Origin: Pyrinomonadaceae bacterium | Lineage (GTDB): Bacteria; Acidobacteriota; Blastocatellia; Pyrinomonadales; Pyrinomonadaceae | DNA: 29,491 nt | Direction: 5' to 3' | Assembly: GCA_035575965.1 (NCBI GenBank) | Contig: DATLXD010000114.1 | Location: 1 to 29,491 of the forward strand | Part shown: one piece after another, positions 4,576-27,688 of the stretch | How the letters are laid out: each line of letters begins with the position of its first letter | Position numbering within the stretch: the first letter of the stretch is position 1 | Notes under the pieces: model-generated | What the model saw: only the letters and a program-made list of their open reading frames with translations | Databases searched by the model: none | Told to the model about the DNA's origin: nothing | Made by a program: the position numbers and the translations under genes

Positions 4576-6807
4576 ATGAGCGAAAATGAACAAAGCCGAA
4601 TAAAGCCAAAGAAACGCACCCCGCCCTGGTTTCTGGGCGCGTTTGTCCTGGTTTTGCTGACGGTTTTGATTCTGTTGCAATCGTCGAATTATTGGAAGGA
4701 TTTTGAAATTGAATCCGCCAGCGACACGCTGCTGCTTTACGCGCTTTCTTCGCTCAATTTTTTTGCATTTGTCATCTTCGGATTTATCTTTGTTCGCAGT
4801 CTGTTAAAACTTCGCCGCGAAAGACGCGCGATGCAACTCGGCTCAAGAATTAAAACCAAACTGCTGTTGTATTTTTTCGCCATCAGTCTGCTGCCAATTA
4901 TTGCAATGGCGGTTTTCTCTTATTTGTATACGAATCGCGCACTGGAACGCTGGTTCAGGCAAATTCCCGAAAATGCTATCAGCGAAGCGAGGCGCGTGCA
5001 AAACCTGTTAATCACCGACCAAACATTGAAATTGCAGGAAACCGCCAATATGCTGGCAGCCGAAGTGGATAAACGGGAAATTACCGCGCAGGATTTGCAG
5101 ACGCTGGTCGAAGCGGGAAATTTAACGAAACTCGAAATAATCTCGAAAACGGGCGACGTGATTGCCGCAGGCGAAAAAAATCTGAATGCAGAAGAAAAAA
5201 CCGAACTCGAAAAAACTCTTAAATTTGTTCACCAAAACAACCTTAGCGAAGCAGCTTTAAGCGACGGAAAATTTTTTGACGCTGCCGCGGCAACACTTTC
5301 AGACGGACGAGCGTTGGTTGTCGTGCCGAGTCTGCGTCCTGCCGAAAACGTCAATCAATTATTTGAAAATTCCCTCGTCGAACTTGTAAAATTAAAGCAA
5401 GAAGGGGTTACCGTCCGGCGAACCGGGTTTCTGACATTGGGAGTATTGACGTTTCTTTTGATTTTCGCTTCTTCGTGGACGGCTTTTTATATTGCGCGCG
5501 GACTAACCGTTCCAATCAAAGCGTTGGCGGAAGGCGCGGAAAAAATTGCACTTGGAAATTTGGCGCATCGTGTTTCCGTCCTTGCTGAAGACGAGCTTGC
5601 GCTGCTCGTTTTGACATTCAATCAAATGTCCGCCAAATTGGAGGAAAATTCCGCCGAACTCGAAGAACGCCGCAAGTATATCGAAACAGTTTTGCAGTCG
5701 CTTTCGACCGGTGTAATTTCTTTTGACAGCGAAAACCGCATCACAACTATCAACAAAGCGGCAATTCAAATTCTGAAACTCGAAAACGGGGACTTCGCAC
5801 AATTCGGTTTGGAAAAACTCGTCAACGAAGAAAACCGCACGATTTTGGAAAGACTTCTTGCGCGTGCAAAACGCATCGGGCAGGCGAGCGAGCAAACCGT
5901 TTTACAGCGCGAGCATACAGACGGAGGTGTGGAAACGAACGGAAATTTGCCGGTTGTTTTGTCCGCAACCGCTTTACCCGAAACTTTTGACGGCAAGGCG
6001 AGCGGAAGCGTGTTGGTTATTGAAGATTTGAGCGAATTGATTGCCGCCCAACGCGCTTCGGCGTGGCAGGAAGTAGCCAGACGAATGGCGCACGAGATAA
6101 AAAATCCGCTGACACCGATTCAGCTTTCGGCAGAGCGCATTGCAAAGAAATTTACAAACGGCGACGCAGAAAAAAATTATCCACAGATAAACATAGATAA
6201 ACACAGATTTAAAAACAAAGACCAAGGACCAAAGACCAAAGCCCAAACTGCAAAAATTATCAAAGACGGAACGGAAACGATTTTGCGCGAAGTTAATTCT
6301 CTAAAATCGATGGTTGACGAGTTTTCACGCTTTGCGCGGCTGCCGAACGCTAGATTGGAAAAAGGAAATGTGAACCGGATAATTGAACAATCAGTTTTTC
6401 TTTACGAAGACCGTTTTCCAGACGTTCAGATAAAAACGAATTTAGAAGATAAAATTCCGGGCGCGATGATTGACGAAGAACAATTGCGCCGCGCGTTTGT
6501 GAATTTAATCGAAAATTCAATCGAAGCGTTTGACGAAGCGCAAGCGGAAAAGCAAATTTATATAAAAACCTTTCACGACGCGGCGCGGGACTTGATTGTT
6601 GCAGAACTTTCCGACAACGGAAACGGAATTTCTCCCGCCGACTTTCAGAAACTTTTTCAGCCGTATTTTTCGACCAAAGGACGCGGAACGGGTTTGGGTT
6701 TGGCAATCGTGCAGAGAATCATTGGCGAGCATCAAGGAAAAATAAAAGCAGTTTCAAACAAACCGTGCGGCGCAAAATTTATCATCGAGCTTCCGACTTT
6801 TATTTAA
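4576..6807 (+). CDS. NtrY-like sensor histidine kinase (TM, HAMP, PAS, HisKA, HATPase)
   Basis: H-box WQEVARRMAHEIKNPLTPIQLSAER (NtrY type), N-box NLIENS, G1 DNGNG, F/G2 FQPYFSTKGRGTGLGL. Confidence 0.92.
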   Translation: MSENEQSRIKPKKRTPPWFLGAFVLVLLTVLILLQSSNYWKDFEIESASDTLLLYALSSLNFFAFVIFGFIFVRSLLKLRRERRAMQLGSRIKTKLLLYFFAISLLPIIAMAVFSYLYTNRALERWFRQIPENAISEARRVQNLLITDQTLKLQETANMLAAEVDKREITAQDLQTLVEAGNLTKLEIISKTGDVIAAGEKNLNAEEKTELEKTLKFVHQNNLSEAALSDGKFFDAAAATLSDGRALVVVPSLRPAENVNQLFENSLVELVKLKQEGVTVRRTGFLTLGVLTFLLIFASSWTAFYIARGLTVPIKALAEGAEKIALGNLAHRVSVLAEDELALLVLTFNQMSAKLEENSAELEERRKYIETVLQSLSTGVISFDSENRITTINKAAIQILKLENGDFAQFGLEKLVNEENRTILERLLARAKRIGQASEQTVLQREHTDGGVETNGNLPVVLSATALPETFDGKASGSVLVIEDLSELIAAQRASAWQEVARRMAHEIKNPLTPIQLSAERIAKKFTNGDAEKNYPQINIDKHRFKNKDQGPKTKAQTAKIIKDGTETILREVNSLKSMVDEFSRFARLPNARLEKGNVNRIIEQSVFLYEDRFPDVQIKTNLEDKIPGAMIDEEQLRRAFVNLIENSIEAFDEAQAEKQIYIKTFHDAARDLIVAELSDNGNGISPADFQKLFQPYFSTKGRGTGLGLAIVQRIIGEHQGKIKAVSNKPCGAKFIIELPTFI
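6182..6247 (+). repeat. Decamer x3 plus heptamer x4 arrays inside the kinase CDS
   Basis: CACAGATAAA CATAGATAAA CACAGATTTA (6182-6211), then CAAAGAC CAAGGAC CAAAGAC CAAAGCC CAAA (6216-6247). Confidence 0.85.
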
Positions 6808-13689: not shown

Positions 13690-13756
13690 GACGCGGAGAA
13701 ACGGCGACGCGGCGATTTTTACTCTCCGTGTCCCCGTGTCCCCGTGTCTCCTTGTC
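13690..13756. repeat. Inverted octamer arrays spanning the murC stop codon
   Basis: GACGCGGA GAAACGGC GACGCGGC GA, loop TTTTTAC, then TCTCCGTG TCCCCGTG TCCCCGTG TCTCCTTG TC. Confidence 0.88.
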
Positions 13757-15128
13757 GCAAAGTTTCTAATATCTCATCGGAAAGTCGCGTGATGCTTCCC
13801 GCGCCCAAAGTTATAACCAAATCATCTGCCTGCAATTCCTCGGCGATTTGAGCGGCGGCATTATCAATTTCGCCGATATACCGCACGTTTTTATGACCGT
13901 ATTTTTTGATGTTCTCGGTCAAAATCTCGGCGGTTACGCCCTCGATCGACTGCTCGCTCGCCGCGTAAATATCCGAAACAAAAAGCACGTCGGCGTTATT
14001 AAAACAAAGCGCAAATTCGTCCATCAATTCCTGGGTTCTGGTGTAGCGATGCGGTTGGAAAACAACCACCGTCCGCTTGCCGCCCGAACCGTTTTTCGCC
14101 CCCGCGAGCGTTGCCGAAATTTCCGTCGGATGATGACCGTAATCGTCGATTACCGTGATACCTTTCGCTTCACCTTTGAATTGAAAACGGCGGTTGGCAT
14201 TCTTAAATTTAGTAAATGCTTCGGCGATTTTCTGGAACGGAACGTCAACTTCCAGCGCAACGGCAATGGAGGCTAAAGCATTATAGATATTGTGTTTGCC
14301 CGGAACAGGTAAGTTTATCTCGCCTAAAACTTCGGCGCCTTTCCAGACATTAAAAGCCGAGCCGAAATTATCGTTATAGCGAATGTTATGCGCTGAAACA
14401 TCGGCTTGCGCGGTCATTCCGTATGTAACGCGGCGGCGTTTGATGTTGGGAATAATAAGCTGAACATTCGGGTCGTCGAGACAGATGATGCACGCGCCGT
14501 AAAACGGAACTTTATTGACAAAATCCGTGAAACACTGCACCACGTCGTCCATTCCTTTGTAAGATTCCATATGTTCCTTATCAATGTTCGTCACGACGGA
14601 AACCGTCGGATTGAGCATCAAAAAAGAACGGTCGCTTTCGTCGGCTTCGGTTACAAACCAATCGCTCGTGCCGAGCTTCGCGTTTGAGCCGAGCGTGTCA
14701 ACCACGCCGCCGACAACCGTCGTGGGTTCCAATCCAGCGTGTCCTAAAATCGTGGCAATCATCGAAGTCGTCGAAGTCTTCCCGTGAGTTCCGGCAACCG
14801 CCACCGAATACGGCTTCAAAGTCATCAATTCGGCGAGCATTTCCGCACGCGGTATAACCGGAATTTTCCTTTCTTTGGCAATTACTACTTCTGGATTATC
14901 TTCCTTAACCGCCGATGAATAAACCACAACCTGCGCGTCGCCGACGCTTTCCGCCGCGTGTCCTTCGTAAATTTTAGCGCCGGCTTTTTCCAGTCGGTCG
15001 GTAATTTTCGATTTTTTCAAATCAGAACCTGAAACAGAGAATTCCAGATTGCACAAAACTTCGGCGATGCCGCTCATTCCGATGCCGCCGATACCGATAA
15101 AATGTATGTTTTTAACGTGCCGAAACAT
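13719..15128 (-). CDS. murC: UDP-N-acetylmuramate--L-alanine ligase
   Basis: HFIGIGGIGMSG, AGTHGKTSTT, EADESD, DDYGHHPTE and FQPHRYTRT motifs. Confidence 0.98.
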   Translation of the reverse strand: MFRHVKNIHFIGIGGIGMSGIAEVLCNLEFSVSGSDLKKSKITDRLEKAGAKIYEGHAAESVGDAQVVVYSSAVKEDNPEVVIAKERKIPVIPRAEMLAELMTLKPYSVAVAGTHGKTSTTSMIATILGHAGLEPTTVVGGVVDTLGSNAKLGTSDWFVTEADESDRSFLMLNPTVSVVTNIDKEHMESYKGMDDVVQCFTDFVNKVPFYGACIICLDDPNVQLIIPNIKRRRVTYGMTAQADVSAHNIRYNDNFGSAFNVWKGAEVLGEINLPVPGKHNIYNALASIAVALEVDVPFQKIAEAFTKFKNANRRFQFKGEAKGITVIDDYGHHPTEISATLAGAKNGSGGKRTVVVFQPHRYTRTQELMDEFALCFNNADVLFVSDIYAASEQSIEGVTAEILTENIKKYGHKNVRYIGEIDNAAAQIAEELQADDLVITLGAGSITRLSDEILETLRQGDTGTRGHGE

Positions 15129-15131
15129 TTC

Positions 15132-15186
15132 GATTTTGGATTTTGGATTTTGGATTTTTCAAATTTGCAATCTCAACCACAAAATC
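15132..15186. repeat. GATTTTG x3 array with a degenerate inverted arm at the murG-murC junction
   Basis: GATTTTG x3 (15132-15152) plus GATTTT; counter-arm CAAATTT GCAATCT CAACCA CAAAATC (15160-15186). Confidence 0.85.
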
Positions 15187-17584: not shown

Positions 17585-17652
17585 TGTCCAATGTTTAATA
17601 TTTTAGTTTGTTCCGCAGACTGACCTTGGGCTTTGGACTTTAGACTTTGGAC
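17573..17652. repeat. Inverted CAAAGTC/GACTTTG heptamer arrays across the murD 3' end
   Basis: CGAAGTT CAATGTC CAATGTT (17575-17595) faces GACCTTG GGCTTTG GACTTTA GACTTTG GAC (17622-17652). Confidence 0.8.
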
Positions 17653-20158: not shown

Positions 20159-20270
20159 AATTTTGGATTTTAGATTTTGGGTTTGTCCGCCGTCCTTTGT
20201 TTTCCTTTGCCTGAAATTTGAAATCTGCAATCAAAATTAACATCTGCGTTTGTCCGTGTGCATCTGTGTT
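20159..20270. repeat. Composite array at the murF-mraY junction (inverted heptamer arms plus decamer x3)
   Basis: AATTTTG GATTTTA GATTTTG (20159-20179) versus TGAAATT TGAAATC TGCAATC AAAATT (20212-20238); then CATCTGCGTT TGTCCGTGTG CATCTGTGTT (20241-20270). Confidence 0.85.
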
Positions 20271-25922: not shown

Positions 25923-26726
25923 ATGACTATTACCTTCATTCAACTTATTGTCTTCGGCGCGGTTGCGGGCTTTGCAAATGTGCTTGGCGGTCTGATTCTT
26001 TTTCCGACGGGAATTCACAAAACTTACAAAAATCTTCTCAAATATGTTTTAGCATTGGGCGCGGGTTTTATGCTTGGCGTAATTTTTATTGATGTTTTGC
26101 CGGAAGTAGTTGAAATTTGGGTGAAACCGGACAATGCAAACGTTAGTGAAGCATTGGTCTTTCCGATGATTCTGCTGCTCATTGGTTATCTCTTGACACA
26201 GTTTTTTGAACATACTATCGCGCCTCATTTTCACTTGGGCGAAGAAATGCACCACGAACATTTGATTTCCACACGCTCGGCTTACACGGCAATCGGCGGA
26301 TTGCTGATTCATACATTTTTCGACGGCGTTTCGATTGCCGCCGCCGCGCAGGTTAATTTCCGCGTCGGAATTTTGGTTTTTATCGCGGTTTTTCTGCACA
26401 AATTTCCCGAAGGCTTTACGATTGCTTCGATGGTTTTAGCCGCTGGAAAAGGTCTCAGGGAAGTTATTCTGGCAACATCTTTAGTGGGTTTGACGACTTT
26501 GCTCGGTGTTTTGATTTTTTATTTTATCGGCGCAAGCGTGGGTTTTACCGTGGCTTACGCGCTTCCGCTGGCAAGCGGCGTAACGCTTTATGTGGCGGCA
26601 AGCGACCTTATTCCCGAAGTCAATCATCACGGCGGAAAACGACCGCTCGTTTCGATGTCGGTGTTCGCCGGAGTTGCATTGTTTTTCCTCGTGCATTACG
26701 CTTTGAATACGATTTTAGAAACTTAG
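25923..26726 (+). CDS. ZIP family divalent metal transporter
   Basis: About 8 TM helices, His-rich loop HFHLGEEMHHEH, TM4 HTFFDG, TM5 HKFPEG, C-terminal LYVAASDLIPE. Confidence 0.92.
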   Translation: MTITFIQLIVFGAVAGFANVLGGLILFPTGIHKTYKNLLKYVLALGAGFMLGVIFIDVLPEVVEIWVKPDNANVSEALVFPMILLLIGYLLTQFFEHTIAPHFHLGEEMHHEHLISTRSAYTAIGGLLIHTFFDGVSIAAAAQVNFRVGILVFIAVFLHKFPEGFTIASMVLAAGKGLREVILATSLVGLTTLLGVLIFYFIGASVGFTVAYALPLASGVTLYVAASDLIPEVNHHGGKRPLVSMSVFAGVALFFLVHYALNTILET

Positions 26727-26785: not shown

Positions 26786-27688
26786 ATGAATAGAAGCCTT
26801 TCGACGGTAAAATTTAATGCTCTGATTTTAGTTTTGCTTTATAGCTTGTTTAGTTTGCAAGCCTTTTCGCAAACGGCAAGTCCGTTTTCGATAAACGAAT
26901 CGCCCTTGCCCGCGCCGACCGAGCCGGTGAATGATTTTGCGGGCGTTTTGGATGAAAACACCAAGCAAACGCTCAACCAGCGCATAAAAGATTTCAAGGC
27001 TAAGACAAATCCGCAAGTCGTCTTAGCGGTTGCGATTGTGAAAACGACCGGCGAGCGCGATATTTTCGATTATTCGCTCGCGGTGTCGCGCGGCTGGAAA
27101 ATCGGCACGAAGGACGATGAAAATCCGAGCGCGCTGCTTTTTATTGCAATTGACGACCGCAAGTATTTTACGCAGGTCAGCCGAAACCTGGAAGACGAAT
27201 TGCCGGACGGCGTTGTCGGACAGCTTCAGCGTCAAAATCTCGTTCCGGCATTCAGACAAGGCAATTACGGTAAAGGTGTCGCGGATACGATTGAGGCTTA
27301 CATTCGCACGATTGAAGCCAAAGGAAGCGGTCAGCCCGCTAACATTGCAAACACCAAACAAGACCGCGTAGAGAGAGGTTCTGGAGGAATTTGTAACATC
27401 GTGACTTGTCTGATAATTTTATTCGTTCTGATGCTCATAATTTTCAGTCGTTTCGGTTCGTCAAACAGAGATAAAAATGACAGAGACCGTTGGGGCGGCG
27501 GTGGCGGCGGATTCGGCGGCGGAAGCGCGTTGCCGTGGATTATTGGCGGGGTTTTAGGCGGAATGGGCGGTAACGATAGAGGTTCATCGGGCGGTTGGGG
27601 AAGCGGCGGTTCTTCCGGCGGCGGCGATTGGGGCGGCTTCGGCGGCGGCGGTGATTTCGGCGGCGGCGGCGCGGGCGGAGATTGGTAG
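26786..27688 (+). CDS. TPM domain protein (YgcG-like)
   Basis: Signal peptide, PVNDFAGVL, GWKIG, LLFIAIDDRK, one TM helix, Gly-rich tail ending GGGDFGGGGAGGDW. Confidence 0.93.
   Translation: MNRSLSTVKFNALILVLLYSLFSLQAFSQTASPFSINESPLPAPTEPVNDFAGVLDENTKQTLNQRIKDFKAKTNPQVVLAVAIVKTTGERDIFDYSLAVSRGWKIGTKDDENPSALLFIAIDDRKYFTQVSRNLEDELPDGVVGQLQRQNLVPAFRQGNYGKGVADTIEAYIRTIEAKGSGQPANIANTKQDRVERGSGGICNIVTCLIILFVLMLIIFSRFGSSNRDKNDRDRWGGGGGGFGGGSALPWIIGGVLGGMGGNDRGSSGGWGSGGSSGGGDWGGFGGGGDFGGGGAGGDW

What the first reader, a model, noticed from the sequence alone, without database searches (positions are those of the whole stretch)
6163..6247. Intergenic-type repeats inserted in frame into the DHp loop of a histidine kinase
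Seen: between the H-box helix and the second DHp helix the DNA reads GACGCAGA, then a decamer x3, then a heptamer x4. It translates as DAEKNYPQINIDKHRFKNKDQGPKTKAQ. The decamer matches the reverse complement of the murF-mraY array (ACACAGAT) and the heptamer matches the murD array family (CAAAG[A/T]C). Units of 7 and 10 nt are not codon multiples, so the periodicity is at DNA level. Inference: the repeat-generating process also hits coding sequence and is tolerated in this loop. Unit gain or loss would frameshift away the ATPase domain, a possible phase-variation switch.
Basis: partly seen in the sequence, partly recalled or inferred. Interest (0 to 1): 0.62.

Follow-up and report, generated by a model that had tools for sequence, protein, structure and literature searches.

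The report
Repeat DNA translated in kinase loop
Two short DNA repeat arrays of the kind that fill this soil bacterium's gene spacers are read in frame as a floppy 20-residue loop of a signalling kinase, as an old, tolerated insertion and not as an on/off switch.

Summary
A decamer array (6182-6208) and a heptamer array (6216-6247) lie in frame in an NtrY-type histidine kinase, in the connector between the two DHp helices (AlphaFold model). Both belong to genome-wide families: 731 period-7 arrays in 2.37 Mb, mostly intergenic hairpin arms.

The site is a hot spot. All 32 same-genus orthologues and about 120 metagenomic homologues carry 34-71 residues there, built from at least eight array families. 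Other families of the class have 22-36 residues and no arrays.

The window's arrays are old. Its subclade keeps the same 45-residue segment across saturated synonymous divergence.

Arrays also sit in frame in ValRS, LeuRS, UvrA, PurL and other proteins. 89% encode hydrophilic peptides.

The decamer copy keeps the family's A-rich leader, so it looks like an inserted half-element, not local slippage.

The phase-variation reading is poorly supported. The tracts are short and imperfect, and three assemblies show no variants. However, one relative (G012) has lost exactly one unit and is frameshifted.

Following a lead from earlier scan notes, I found that 25 of 31 PF05635 (Avd-like) genes in this class are flanked by inverted arrays. 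The scan has seen this phenomenon before in other phyla.

The parts
4576..6807 (+). NtrY-type sensor histidine kinase, 743 aa (HAMP, PAS, HisKA, HATPase_c)
   Evidence: ORF. Pfam domains. Homologues are named NtrY / nitrogen-regulation kinase by their sources.
6031..6156 (+). DHp helix 1 (residues 486-527) with the H-box; phospho-acceptor His506 is codon 6091-6093
   Evidence: AlphaFold helix 13-54 of the fragment that starts at residue 474. HEIKNPLTPI is invariant in 37 aligned kinases. The Pfam HisKA match ends at residue 525.
6157..6237 (+). Connector between the two DHp helices (residues 528-554); residues 536-550 are modelled at pLDDT below 50
   Evidence: Solved kinases align on both sides but not across it. 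The model matches DHp-CA structures ZraS, YF1 and HK853.
6167..6181 (+). A-rich leader of the decamer element (CAGAAAAAAATTATC)
   Evidence: It scores 9.6 bits on a weight matrix of the 22 nt upstream of 32 other genomic copies (their median is 8.0). That score is reached by 0.07% of random genomic 22-mers and is the best position in the whole kinase gene.
6182..6208 (+). Decamer array CACAGATAAA x2.7, translated PQINIDKHR
   Evidence: TRF. Exact pattern match at 6181-6208 with 0 matches in 100 shuffles. Contig depth is about 7-fold higher at 6174-6214, with loose ends at 6172-6176 and 6208-6211, which shows a dispersed repeat.
6209..6215 (+). 7-nt spacer TTAAAAA between the two arrays
   Evidence: Read directly.
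6216..6247 (+). Heptamer array CAAAGAC x4.6, translated NKDQGPKTKAQ; its last codons start helix 2
   Evidence: TRF. The same array at the same place is cleaner in G009. AGACCAA-type arrays are present in most of the genus.
6238..6336 (+). DHp helix 2 (residues 555-587)
   Evidence: AlphaFold helix 82-114 of the fragment.
6472..6798 (+). ATP-binding (HATPase_c) domain that a one-unit change upstream would put out of frame
   Evidence: Pfam residues 633-741.
17622..17652 (-). Related heptamer array (GTCCAAA family on the minus strand) at the 3' end of a dcw-cluster gene
   Evidence: TRF; sequence read.
20241..20270 (-). Decamer-family copy (ACACAGAT type on the minus strand) in an intergenic stack of arrays
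   Evidence: Sequence read.

Best explanation
The segment is a translated relic of the genome's dispersed short-period repeat elements. These elements are about 30-nt arrays of 7-10-nt units. In intergenic DNA they pair up as the arms of long hairpins. Their full-size form encloses a small PF05635 (Avd-like) gene.

The tip of the kinase's DHp helical hairpin is a permissive, solvent-exposed connector. In the ancestor of this Pyrinomonadaceae genus about 60 nt of such arrays became fixed there in frame, roughly doubling the connector. Since then further arrays have been added or exchanged at the same spot in different lineages.

Only copies that keep the frame, contain no stop codon and encode hydrophilic, probably disordered peptide survive. 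In the window's lineage a half-element (A-rich leader plus decamer arm) sits next to an older AGACCAA-type heptamer array. Both are now decaying by point substitution under weak purifying selection.

Shown: the arrays, their families, their placement in the loop, the genus-wide hot spot, the age of the arrays, and the genome-wide in-frame copies.

Inferred: insertion of pre-formed elements, the selective filter, and little or no effect on kinase function.
For: Family membership and genome-wide excess: there are 731 period-7 arrays against about 68 expected from shuffles. 46% are intergenic and 19% lie at gene edges, against 10% and 4.5% for random 31-mers.

Hairpin architecture: 61-76% of intergenic or edge arrays have an inverted partner within 120 nt, against 8% of deep coding arrays. 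Decamer pairs fold at -39 to -65 kcal/mol between genes. The kinase segment is unstructured as RNA (z = -0.31).

Pre-formed element: the kinase copy keeps the family's leader.

Loop placement.

Hot spot: outgroup families have 22-25 residues there (33-36 in f3) and no arrays. Distant NtrY homologues have 20. The genus has 35-57 residues and its metagenomic homologues 34-71, built from GTCCAAA, ATCCAAA, AATTACG, GTGGTCA, GTCGGCA, TCCTTCG, GATTTCG and decamer arrays.

Age: G009, G042 and 12 metagenomic proteins share the decamer-plus-heptamer peptide at exactly 45 residues. Loop omega is 0.25-0.8 against 0.12-0.15 in the flanks.

Generality: 57-81 arrays lie deep in ORFs. Ten that I checked are in penicillin amidase, UvrA, a MutS2-like protein, PurL, a lytic transglycosylase, ValRS, LeuRS, an ABC-F protein, an E2 acyltransferase and an aldehyde dehydrogenase. 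The ValRS insert is present in 4 of 16 genus genomes and in no outgroup.

Filter: 89% of deep arrays encode hydrophilic heptapeptides (GRAVY -1.24 against a proteome mean of -0.20). The opposite orientation has a stop codon in 25 of 57, or is hydrophobic at +0.70.

Cassette link: the PF05635 gene at C85:6882-7259 lies between inverted ATTTTGG and AATCCAA arrays. 25 of 31 PF05635 genes from 31 genomes of the class have at least 13/14 inverted identity between their flanks, with matching 7-11-nt arrays whose unit differs from cassette to cassette.
Against: No insertion mechanism is shown. I looked for no target-site duplication and identified no transposase, and no reverse transcriptase was found in this 81%-complete genome.

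The units in the kinase (the decamer and CAAAGAC) are not those of the one arrayed PF05635 cassette in this genome (AAAATCC).

The heptamer array could have grown in place by slippage.

Many lineages, with different arrays, share the same length of 45 residues, and omega is below 1. This suggests the loop has some function or length constraint, so 'tolerated junk' may be too weak a description.

My gene calls are crude (longest ORFs, greedy choice), so the coding and intergenic counts are approximate.

Translation of the loop is inferred from frame conservation, not from peptides.
Confidence: 0.72

Rival explanations
1. Contingency locus. Slippage in the heptamer or decamer tract gains or loses a unit at appreciable frequency. 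This frameshifts the kinase before helix 2 and the ATPase domain and switches the signalling pathway off and on.
For: Units of 7 and 10 nt do shift the frame. G012 differs from G010 and G024 by an exact one-unit (7-nt) deletion in the GTCCAAA tract at this very site. It has a stop about 45 codons later, and the remaining 200 codons are intact in another frame (E = 2.9e-95). In G048 both contigs end inside the loop. A heptamer-driven switch within a coding region exists in NeuO (PMC3046976).
Against: The window's tracts are 2.7 and 4.6 units at 88% identity, and the longest perfect tandem is about two units. NeuO tracts reach 93 copies and lie at the 5' end. Contigs from three samples show no length variant. 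The segment is exactly 45 residues in 70 of 120 homologues and throughout the window's subclade, despite dS of 0.6-1.5. Only 1 of the genus genomes (34 searched, 32 with a match) is out of frame, and none of about 70 metagenome loci is. Identical arrays sit in essential genes.
Confidence: 0.07
2. Local origin. The arrays arose in place by replication slippage of A-rich loop codons, with no import of pre-formed elements. The resemblance to intergenic arrays reflects a genome-wide slippage bias for 7-nt units.
For: Heptamers are the commonest long simple repeats in many bacteria, and a polymerase footprint of 7 nt has been proposed (Mrazek 2007, as summarised in PMC4679880 and PMC4692102). Neighbouring units differ by single substitutions (GTCCAAA, ATCCAAA, GTTCAAA, GACCAAA). 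In G022 an array is perfect where the sister genomes G041 and G046 have a degenerate one, which suggests local homogenisation.
Against: A small vocabulary of units recurs at tens of loci (73, 43 and 33 arrays for the top three). The decamer copy carries the family's non-repetitive leader. Array length is set at about 31 nt whatever the period, with a mode of 4.x copies, and not the decaying distribution that slippage would give. Unrelated units (AATTACG, GTGGTCA, GTCGGCA) appear at the same site in close relatives.
Confidence: 0.12
3. Exapted functional loop. The array-derived peptide is now a selected part of the kinase, for example setting connector length or handedness, autophosphorylation geometry or partner contact. 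The repeat look is only a historical trace.
For: Loop omega is 0.25 in the clade with the peptide KSKVQSFLNVFKPK, which has many synonymous differences. The modal length of 45 is shared by clades with different arrays. From established knowledge, the DHp connector influences cis versus trans autophosphorylation and lies near the specificity residues. This was not tested here.
Against: Length ranges from 34 to 71 residues within close relatives. Omega is 0.5-0.8 in the window's own subclade. The model gives pLDDT below 50. The same peptides occur in unrelated proteins.
Confidence: 0.15
4. Assembly or binning artefact. The repeat was spliced into the gene by mis-assembly of a metagenome.
For: The genome is a fragmented MAG (409 contigs), and the decamer is a dispersed repeat that attracts extra depth.
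Against: Contigs from three samples span the arrays without a single difference. The ORF is intact. Thirty-one other genomes and about 120 metagenomic proteins have arrays at the same site.
Confidence: 0.01

Closest known systems
Rickettsia palindromic elements (RPE; Ogata et al. 2000, as summarised in PMC10969869)
   Same: Both are a dispersed family of small non-autonomous repeats found in intergenic DNA. Both are also inserted in frame, many times, in unrelated housekeeping genes, where they are translated as extra surface peptide compatible with the fold.
   Different: RPEs are about 100-150-bp palindromes with a conserved peptide. Here the unit of insertion is a roughly 30-nt tandem array, often a single hairpin arm, drawn from dozens of unit families and stacked at the same site. 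The host is a free-living soil acidobacterium.
Heptanucleotide long simple-sequence repeats: TAACTGA of Beggiatoaceae and cyanobacteria (PMC4679880), GGGAATC/GGGGAYT of Xanthomonas and Nostoc (PMC4692102), the class defined by Mrazek et al. 2007
   Same: Both are genome-wide arrays of about four 7-nt units. Both are enriched next to gene ends and under-represented in coding DNA. The TAACTGA unit itself occurs here 11 times (canonical AACTGAT).
   Different: Those genomes are dominated by one unit and the repeats are described as intergenic. Here there are 188 canonical units, most arrays form inverted pairs, and dozens are translated inside conserved proteins.
NeuO poly-psi heptanucleotide VNTR of E. 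coli K1 (PMC3046976)
   Same: Both are a 7-nt unit inside a coding region. Three units encode one heptapeptide, and a one-unit change shifts the frame.
   Different: NeuO has 2-93 perfect copies two nucleotides after the start codon and switches at high frequency. The kinase has 4.6 imperfect copies in mid-gene and a length that is stable across species.
PF05635 proteins: 23S rRNA intervening-sequence protein, similar to the DGR accessory protein Avd (PMC10053308)
   Same: In this class the small four-helix-bundle gene lies between inverted arms, as intervening sequences do. The arms are the same kind of short-period arrays as in the kinase loop.
   Different: The kinase copy has no gene and only direct arrays. 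No rRNA context and no reverse transcriptase was found. A causal link between the protein and the arrays is not shown.

Membership tests
NtrY-type HisKA histidine kinase | HAMP, PAS, HisKA H-box and HATPase_c in this order, with the conserved His and the N, G1, F and G2 boxes | tested here: met
   Pfam. H-box, DNGNGI, FQPYFSTK and GTGLGL are read in the translation. Homologues are named NtrY. The fold matches DHp-CA structures.
Heptanucleotide long simple-sequence repeats (LSSR/STRR-like) | Head-to-tail copies of a 7-nt unit, longer than chance allows | tested here: met
   4.6 copies, TRF score 50. None of 100 shuffled windows reaches it.
Heptanucleotide long simple-sequence repeats (LSSR/STRR-like) | Genome-wide over-representation with enrichment outside genes | tested here: met
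   731 arrays against about 68 expected. 65% are intergenic or at gene edges, against 15% for random positions.
RPE-like selfish repeats in coding DNA | One dispersed family inserted in frame in several unrelated genes | tested here: met
   The ValRS insert is lineage-specific.
RPE-like selfish repeats in coding DNA | The inserted copy is a palindrome (hairpin) | tested here: not met
   The kinase copy has two direct arrays of different units and no inverted partner, and its RNA fold has z = -0.31. Only 8% of deep coding arrays have a partner. The orthologues in G004, G001 and G045 do carry both arms.
RPE-like selfish repeats in coding DNA | Evidence of mobility (target duplication, presence/absence between strains, a mobilising enzyme) | tested here: inconclusive
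   Presence/absence between species is seen for ValRS and for added arrays in the kinase loop. The leader is retained. No target duplication or enzyme was identified.
SSR contingency locus (phase variation) | Long, perfect tract prone to slippage | tested here: not met
   2.7 and 4.6 units at 88% identity.
SSR contingency locus (phase variation) | Unit-number polymorphism within populations | tested here: inconclusive
   None was seen in contigs of X1, X2 and X4, but contigs drop rare variants. No raw reads were available.
SSR contingency locus (phase variation) | On and off alleles among close relatives | tested here: inconclusive
   One off allele (G012, loss of one unit) among 34 genus genomes searched, 32 with a match, and none in about 70 metagenome loci.
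PF05635 hairpin cassette | Small four-helix-bundle gene between inverted short-period arrays | tested here: not met
   This is met for the genome (C85) and for 25 of 31 genes in the class. The kinase segment has no such gene and no inverted arm.

The most novel reading that the evidence does not exclude
The kinase-loop arrays are gene-less arms of an undescribed, class-wide (and, by earlier notes of this scan, multi-phylum) family of hairpin cassettes whose autonomous form carries an Avd-like PF05635 gene. On this reading the cassettes spread or are copied, build the terminator-like hairpins between genes, and seed new translated loops in essential proteins. They prefer sites that already hold an array, which makes places like this DHp connector evolving hot spots.
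Probability: 0.3. Interest if true: 0.8.

Novelty: new variant of a known kind. Interest (0 to 1): 0.55.

Why it matters
This is a clean natural case of non-coding repeat DNA becoming protein sequence. A whole genus of abundant soil bacteria has filled one kinase loop with different 7-nt arrays, always in frame, and some of these pieces have since come under purifying selection.

It also shows that such arrays invade essential enzymes in a free-living bacterium. Until now this was known mainly from Rickettsia.

It ties the arrays to cassettes that carry an Avd-like gene of unknown function, which gives a testable entry point to the old question of what makes heptamer repeats.

For annotation, it warns that odd low-complexity inserts and occasional frameshifts in these genomes are repeat-derived.

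Tried and rejected
1. Unit-number variants in sequencing data. Only assembled contigs were available. They show none in the main strain. They do show a co-occurring relative that replaces 71 nt with 80 nt, still in frame. This cannot exclude rare variants.

2. RNA structure of the kinase segment. It is not significant, so I rejected a hairpin or attenuator role inside the gene.

3. A second frame break in the G015 orthologue. It proved to be a 10-N scaffold gap. The many stops in G020 lie in the N-terminal part, away from the loop, and I did not pursue them.

4. A reverse transcriptase that could partner the Avd-like protein. None was found in this 81%-complete genome.

5. Correlation of array density with PF05635 copy number. 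The samples were too small (20-80 kb per genome). Family f7 has neither. G029 has 13 copies but no array in 20 kb. G026 has 1 copy and many arrays.

6. My first end-anchor pattern for the metagenome loci was too strict, so I replaced it.

7. A literature search for heptamer repeats in Acidobacteria, Blastocatellia or Pyrinomonadaceae found nothing relevant.
Full report
**What is there**

The window is one whole contig of a fragmented metagenome-assembled genome: 2.37 Mb, 409 contigs, 45% G+C, 81% complete. Source names of close homologues place it in Acidobacteriota, family Pyrinomonadaceae.

The ORF 4576-6807 encodes a 743-residue NtrY-type histidine kinase with HAMP, PAS, HisKA and HATPase_c domains.

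Between the H-box helix and the next helix the DNA has four parts:
- an A-rich stretch;
- CACAGATAAA x2.7 at 6182-6208;
- a 7-nt spacer;
- CAAAGAC x4.6 at 6216-6247.

No array of that period and score occurs in 100 dinucleotide-preserving shuffles of the window. Contigs from three separate soil samples span the arrays without a difference.

**Placement in the protein**

I modelled residues 474-743 with AlphaFold, using an alignment of 37 orthologues.
- Helix 1 is residues 486-527 and carries His506.
- Helix 2 is residues 555-587.
- The 27 residues between them are not modelled as regular helix, apart from one four-residue turn.
- Residues 536-550, which are the decamer peptide and most of the heptamer peptide, have pLDDT below 50.

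The model matches solved DHp-CA kinases: ZraS, YF1/FixL, HK853 and CpxA. Sequence alignments to these structures break at the loop.

**The repeats are a genome-wide population**

Tandem Repeats Finder on the whole genome gives 731 period-7 arrays, against about 68 expected from the shuffles. Most have about four copies, and there are 188 canonical units. The commonest units are AAAATCC (73 arrays), AAAGTTC (43) and AATTACG (33). The decamer AAACACAGAT is the commonest period-10 unit.

Median array length is about 31 nt for periods 7 and 14 and 26 nt for period 10. This points to a set length and not to open-ended slippage.

I called genes crudely (longest ORFs, chosen greedily, 87% coding). 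On that basis the 337 stronger heptamer arrays are distributed as follows:

| Position | Arrays | Random 31-mers |
|---|---|---|
| Intergenic | 46% | 10% |
| Gene edge | 19% | 4.5% |
| Inside ORFs | 34% | 85% |

Outside genes, 61-76% of arrays have an inverted partner within 120 nt. Pairs of the decamer element fold into hairpins of -39 to -65 kcal/mol just after stop codons. These hairpins have an A-rich leader on one side and a T-rich tail on the other, which looks like a two-way terminator. That function is inferred, not shown.

**The kinase copy looks like an imported half-element**

Thirty-two other decamer copies share a non-repetitive, A-rich upstream leader. The 22 nt before the kinase's decamer array score 9.6 bits on their weight matrix. 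This is above the family median of 8.0, is reached by 0.07% of random genomic 22-mers, and is the best-scoring position in the whole kinase gene.

The kinase segment has no inverted arm and no significant RNA structure (z = -0.31).

Elsewhere in the genome a decamer arm is also followed by a heptamer array, for example on C145. So 'leader, decamer arm, heptamer array' is a recurring half-hairpin layout.

**A genus-wide hot spot**

I measured the segment between the motif QLSAERI and the motif T-x-L-R-E-V in relatives.

| Group | Residues in the segment | Arrays |
|---|---|---|
| Distant NtrY homologues | 20 | none |
| Other families of the class | 22-25 (33-36 in f3) | none |
| Other Pyrinomonadaceae-like lineages | 23-55, Asn-Gly-rich, with 6-nt periodicity | no heptamer arrays |
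| The window's genus (34 genomes searched, 32 with a match) | 35-57 | yes |
| 120 close metagenomic homologues | 34-71, mode 45 | yes |

In the genus the segment is visibly built of arrays. Units seen include GTCCAAA, ATCCAAA, AATTACG, GTGGTCA, GTCGGCA, TCCTTCG, GATTTCG, AGACCAA and the decamer.

Some orthologues (G004, G001, G045) hold both arms of a GTCCAAA hairpin in frame. Within the window's own subclade, AATTACG and ATCCAAA arrays have been added several times, giving up to 71 residues.

**Age and constraint**

G009, G042 and twelve metagenomic proteins share the window's decamer-plus-heptamer peptide at exactly 45 residues. The periodicity has decayed differently in each: the heptamer array is cleaner in G009 and the decamer array is cleaner in G042.

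Nei-Gojobori estimates:

| Comparison | Loop omega | Flank omega |
|---|---|---|
| Window's subclade (flank dS 0.6-1.5) | 0.5-0.8 | 0.15 |
| Large sister clade (peptide KSKVQSFLNVFKPK) | about 0.25 | 0.12 |

The sister clade shows many synonymous differences. So the arrays are old. They evolve by substitution, not by unit changes, and parts have come under purifying selection.

The DNA-level origin still stands, because the same units fill intergenic DNA and unrelated proteins.

**The phase-variation idea**

Evidence for it:
- G012 differs from G010 and G024 by an exact 7-nt, one-unit deletion in the GTCCAAA tract.
- This gives a stop about 45 codons later.
- The downstream 200 codons are still intact in another frame.
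- In G048 both contigs end inside the loop.

Evidence against a programmed switch in this window:
- The tracts are short and imperfect.
- No variants appear in three assemblies, although contigs hide rare alleles.
- Length is stable across deep divergence.
- Only one off allele occurs among the genus genomes, and none among about 70 metagenome loci.
- The contrast with NeuO is large: NeuO has 2-93 perfect copies at the 5' end.

The strongest argument is generality.
- 57-81 arrays lie deep inside ORFs.
- Ten that I checked are in penicillin amidase, UvrA, a MutS2-like protein, PurL, a lytic transglycosylase, ValRS, LeuRS, an ABC-F protein, an E2 acyltransferase and an aldehyde dehydrogenase.
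- The 23-residue ValRS insert is present in only 4 of 16 genus genomes and in no outgroup. It is a true lineage-specific insertion in an essential gene.
- 89% of deep arrays encode hydrophilic heptapeptides.
- The opposite orientation would give a stop codon or a hydrophobic peptide.

This is the signature of a selective filter on random insertions, not of switches.

**Link to PF05635 cassettes**

Earlier notes of this scan report the same phenomenon in other phyla. They suggest that full-size elements carry a PF05635 gene. I tested this here.

In this genome one PF05635 gene (C85:6882-7259) lies directly after tRNA-SeC, between inverted ATTTTGG x4.4 and AATCCAA x6.4 arrays. That is the genome's most abundant unit family.

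Across 31 genomes of the class, 25 of 31 PF05635 genes have at least 13/14 inverted identity between their 200-nt flanks. Nearly all have matching 7-11-nt arrays on both sides, and the unit differs from cassette to cassette. In G004 the cassette arms use the same unit (AGTCCAA / ACTTTGG) as the two arms inside that genome's kinase loop.

PF05635 is annotated as the 23S rRNA intervening-sequence protein and resembles the DGR accessory protein Avd (PMC10053308). I found no reverse transcriptase here. Whether the protein makes, moves or merely rides with the arrays is unknown.

**Distribution**

Heptamer arrays also occur in sampled DNA of two other families of the class (about 175 per Mb in 40-kb samples). 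I saw none in samples of a Chloracidobacterium-like genome or of family f7. Family f7 also lacks PF05635 in the three genomes searched. The samples are small.

**Comparison with what is known**

Heptamer arrays of about four units near gene ends are known from Xanthomonas, Nostoc, Beggiatoaceae and cyanobacteria (PMC4692102, PMC4679880). The TAACTGA unit itself occurs here.

In-frame colonisation of housekeeping genes by small repeats is known from Rickettsia palindromic elements (PMC10969869).

I found no paper describing either phenomenon in Acidobacteriota, and none linking such arrays to PF05635.

I therefore class this as a new variant of a known kind. Within this scan it is a further instance of something already seen on other DNA.

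**Unpublished genomes**

G016 (L006), G018 (L010, L210) and G042 (L043) are unpublished.
- G016 and G018 add rows to the orthologue comparison, and G018 adds one of the 31 cassettes.
- The two dN/dS pairs that involve G042 rest on it.
- Its loop peptide is identical to that of the public protein P0034.
- No conclusion depends on these genomes alone.

Noticed in passing
G000 contig C85:6721-7283 (locus L206): A PF05635 (Avd-like, 23S rRNA intervening-sequence protein) gene lies directly after tRNA-SeC. It is enclosed by inverted ATTTTGG/AATCCAA heptamer arrays. The same layout holds for 25 of 31 such genes across the class, each with its own unit.
   Followed up: partly
L021 (G012:C205, about 25980-26010): The orthologous kinase has lost exactly one GTCCAAA unit and is frameshifted in the DHp loop. 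The downstream 200 codons are still intact in another frame. I could not check this against reads.
   Followed up: partly
L070 and L071 (G048:C24 end, G048:C6 end): Two contigs of one genome both end inside the kinase loop arrays. This suggests that the repeats break assemblies there.
   Followed up: no
G000 contigs C92:2560-2730, C353:1127-1264, C193, C259, C236: Convergent pairs of the decamer element form hairpins of -39 to -65 kcal/mol right after stop codons, with A-rich and T-rich flanks. They look like two-way transcription terminators built from tandem arrays.
   Followed up: partly
G000 contig C406:5990-6075 (locus L177/L182): ValRS carries two adjacent heptamer arrays (AAATTCA, AATCTTA) as a 23-residue in-frame insert. 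It is present in only 4 of 16 genus genomes and in no outgroup.
   Followed up: yes
whole genome G000: Eleven arrays use the unit TAACTGA (canonical AACTGAT). This is the same heptamer that is abundant in marine Beggiatoaceae and some cyanobacteria (PMC4679880).
   Followed up: no
L110-L146 (metagenome loci of other Pyrinomonadaceae-like lineages): The same DHp connector is expanded to 23-55 residues by Asn-Gly-rich low-complexity sequence with 6-nt periodicity (AACGGC). The loop is therefore an expansion site beyond this genus, with a different repeat type.
   Followed up: no
window 27616-27685: A GGC-rich repeat of period 27 (2.6 copies, TRF score 84) lies inside the ORF 26786-27688. It is probably a Gly-rich protein repeat.
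   Followed up: no
window 13690-13756 and 15128-15158: Octamer (CCGTGTCC) and heptamer (TTTGGAT) arrays abut the ends of dcw-cluster genes. One overlaps the 3' end of an ORF and so adds a repeat-derived tail.
   Followed up: no
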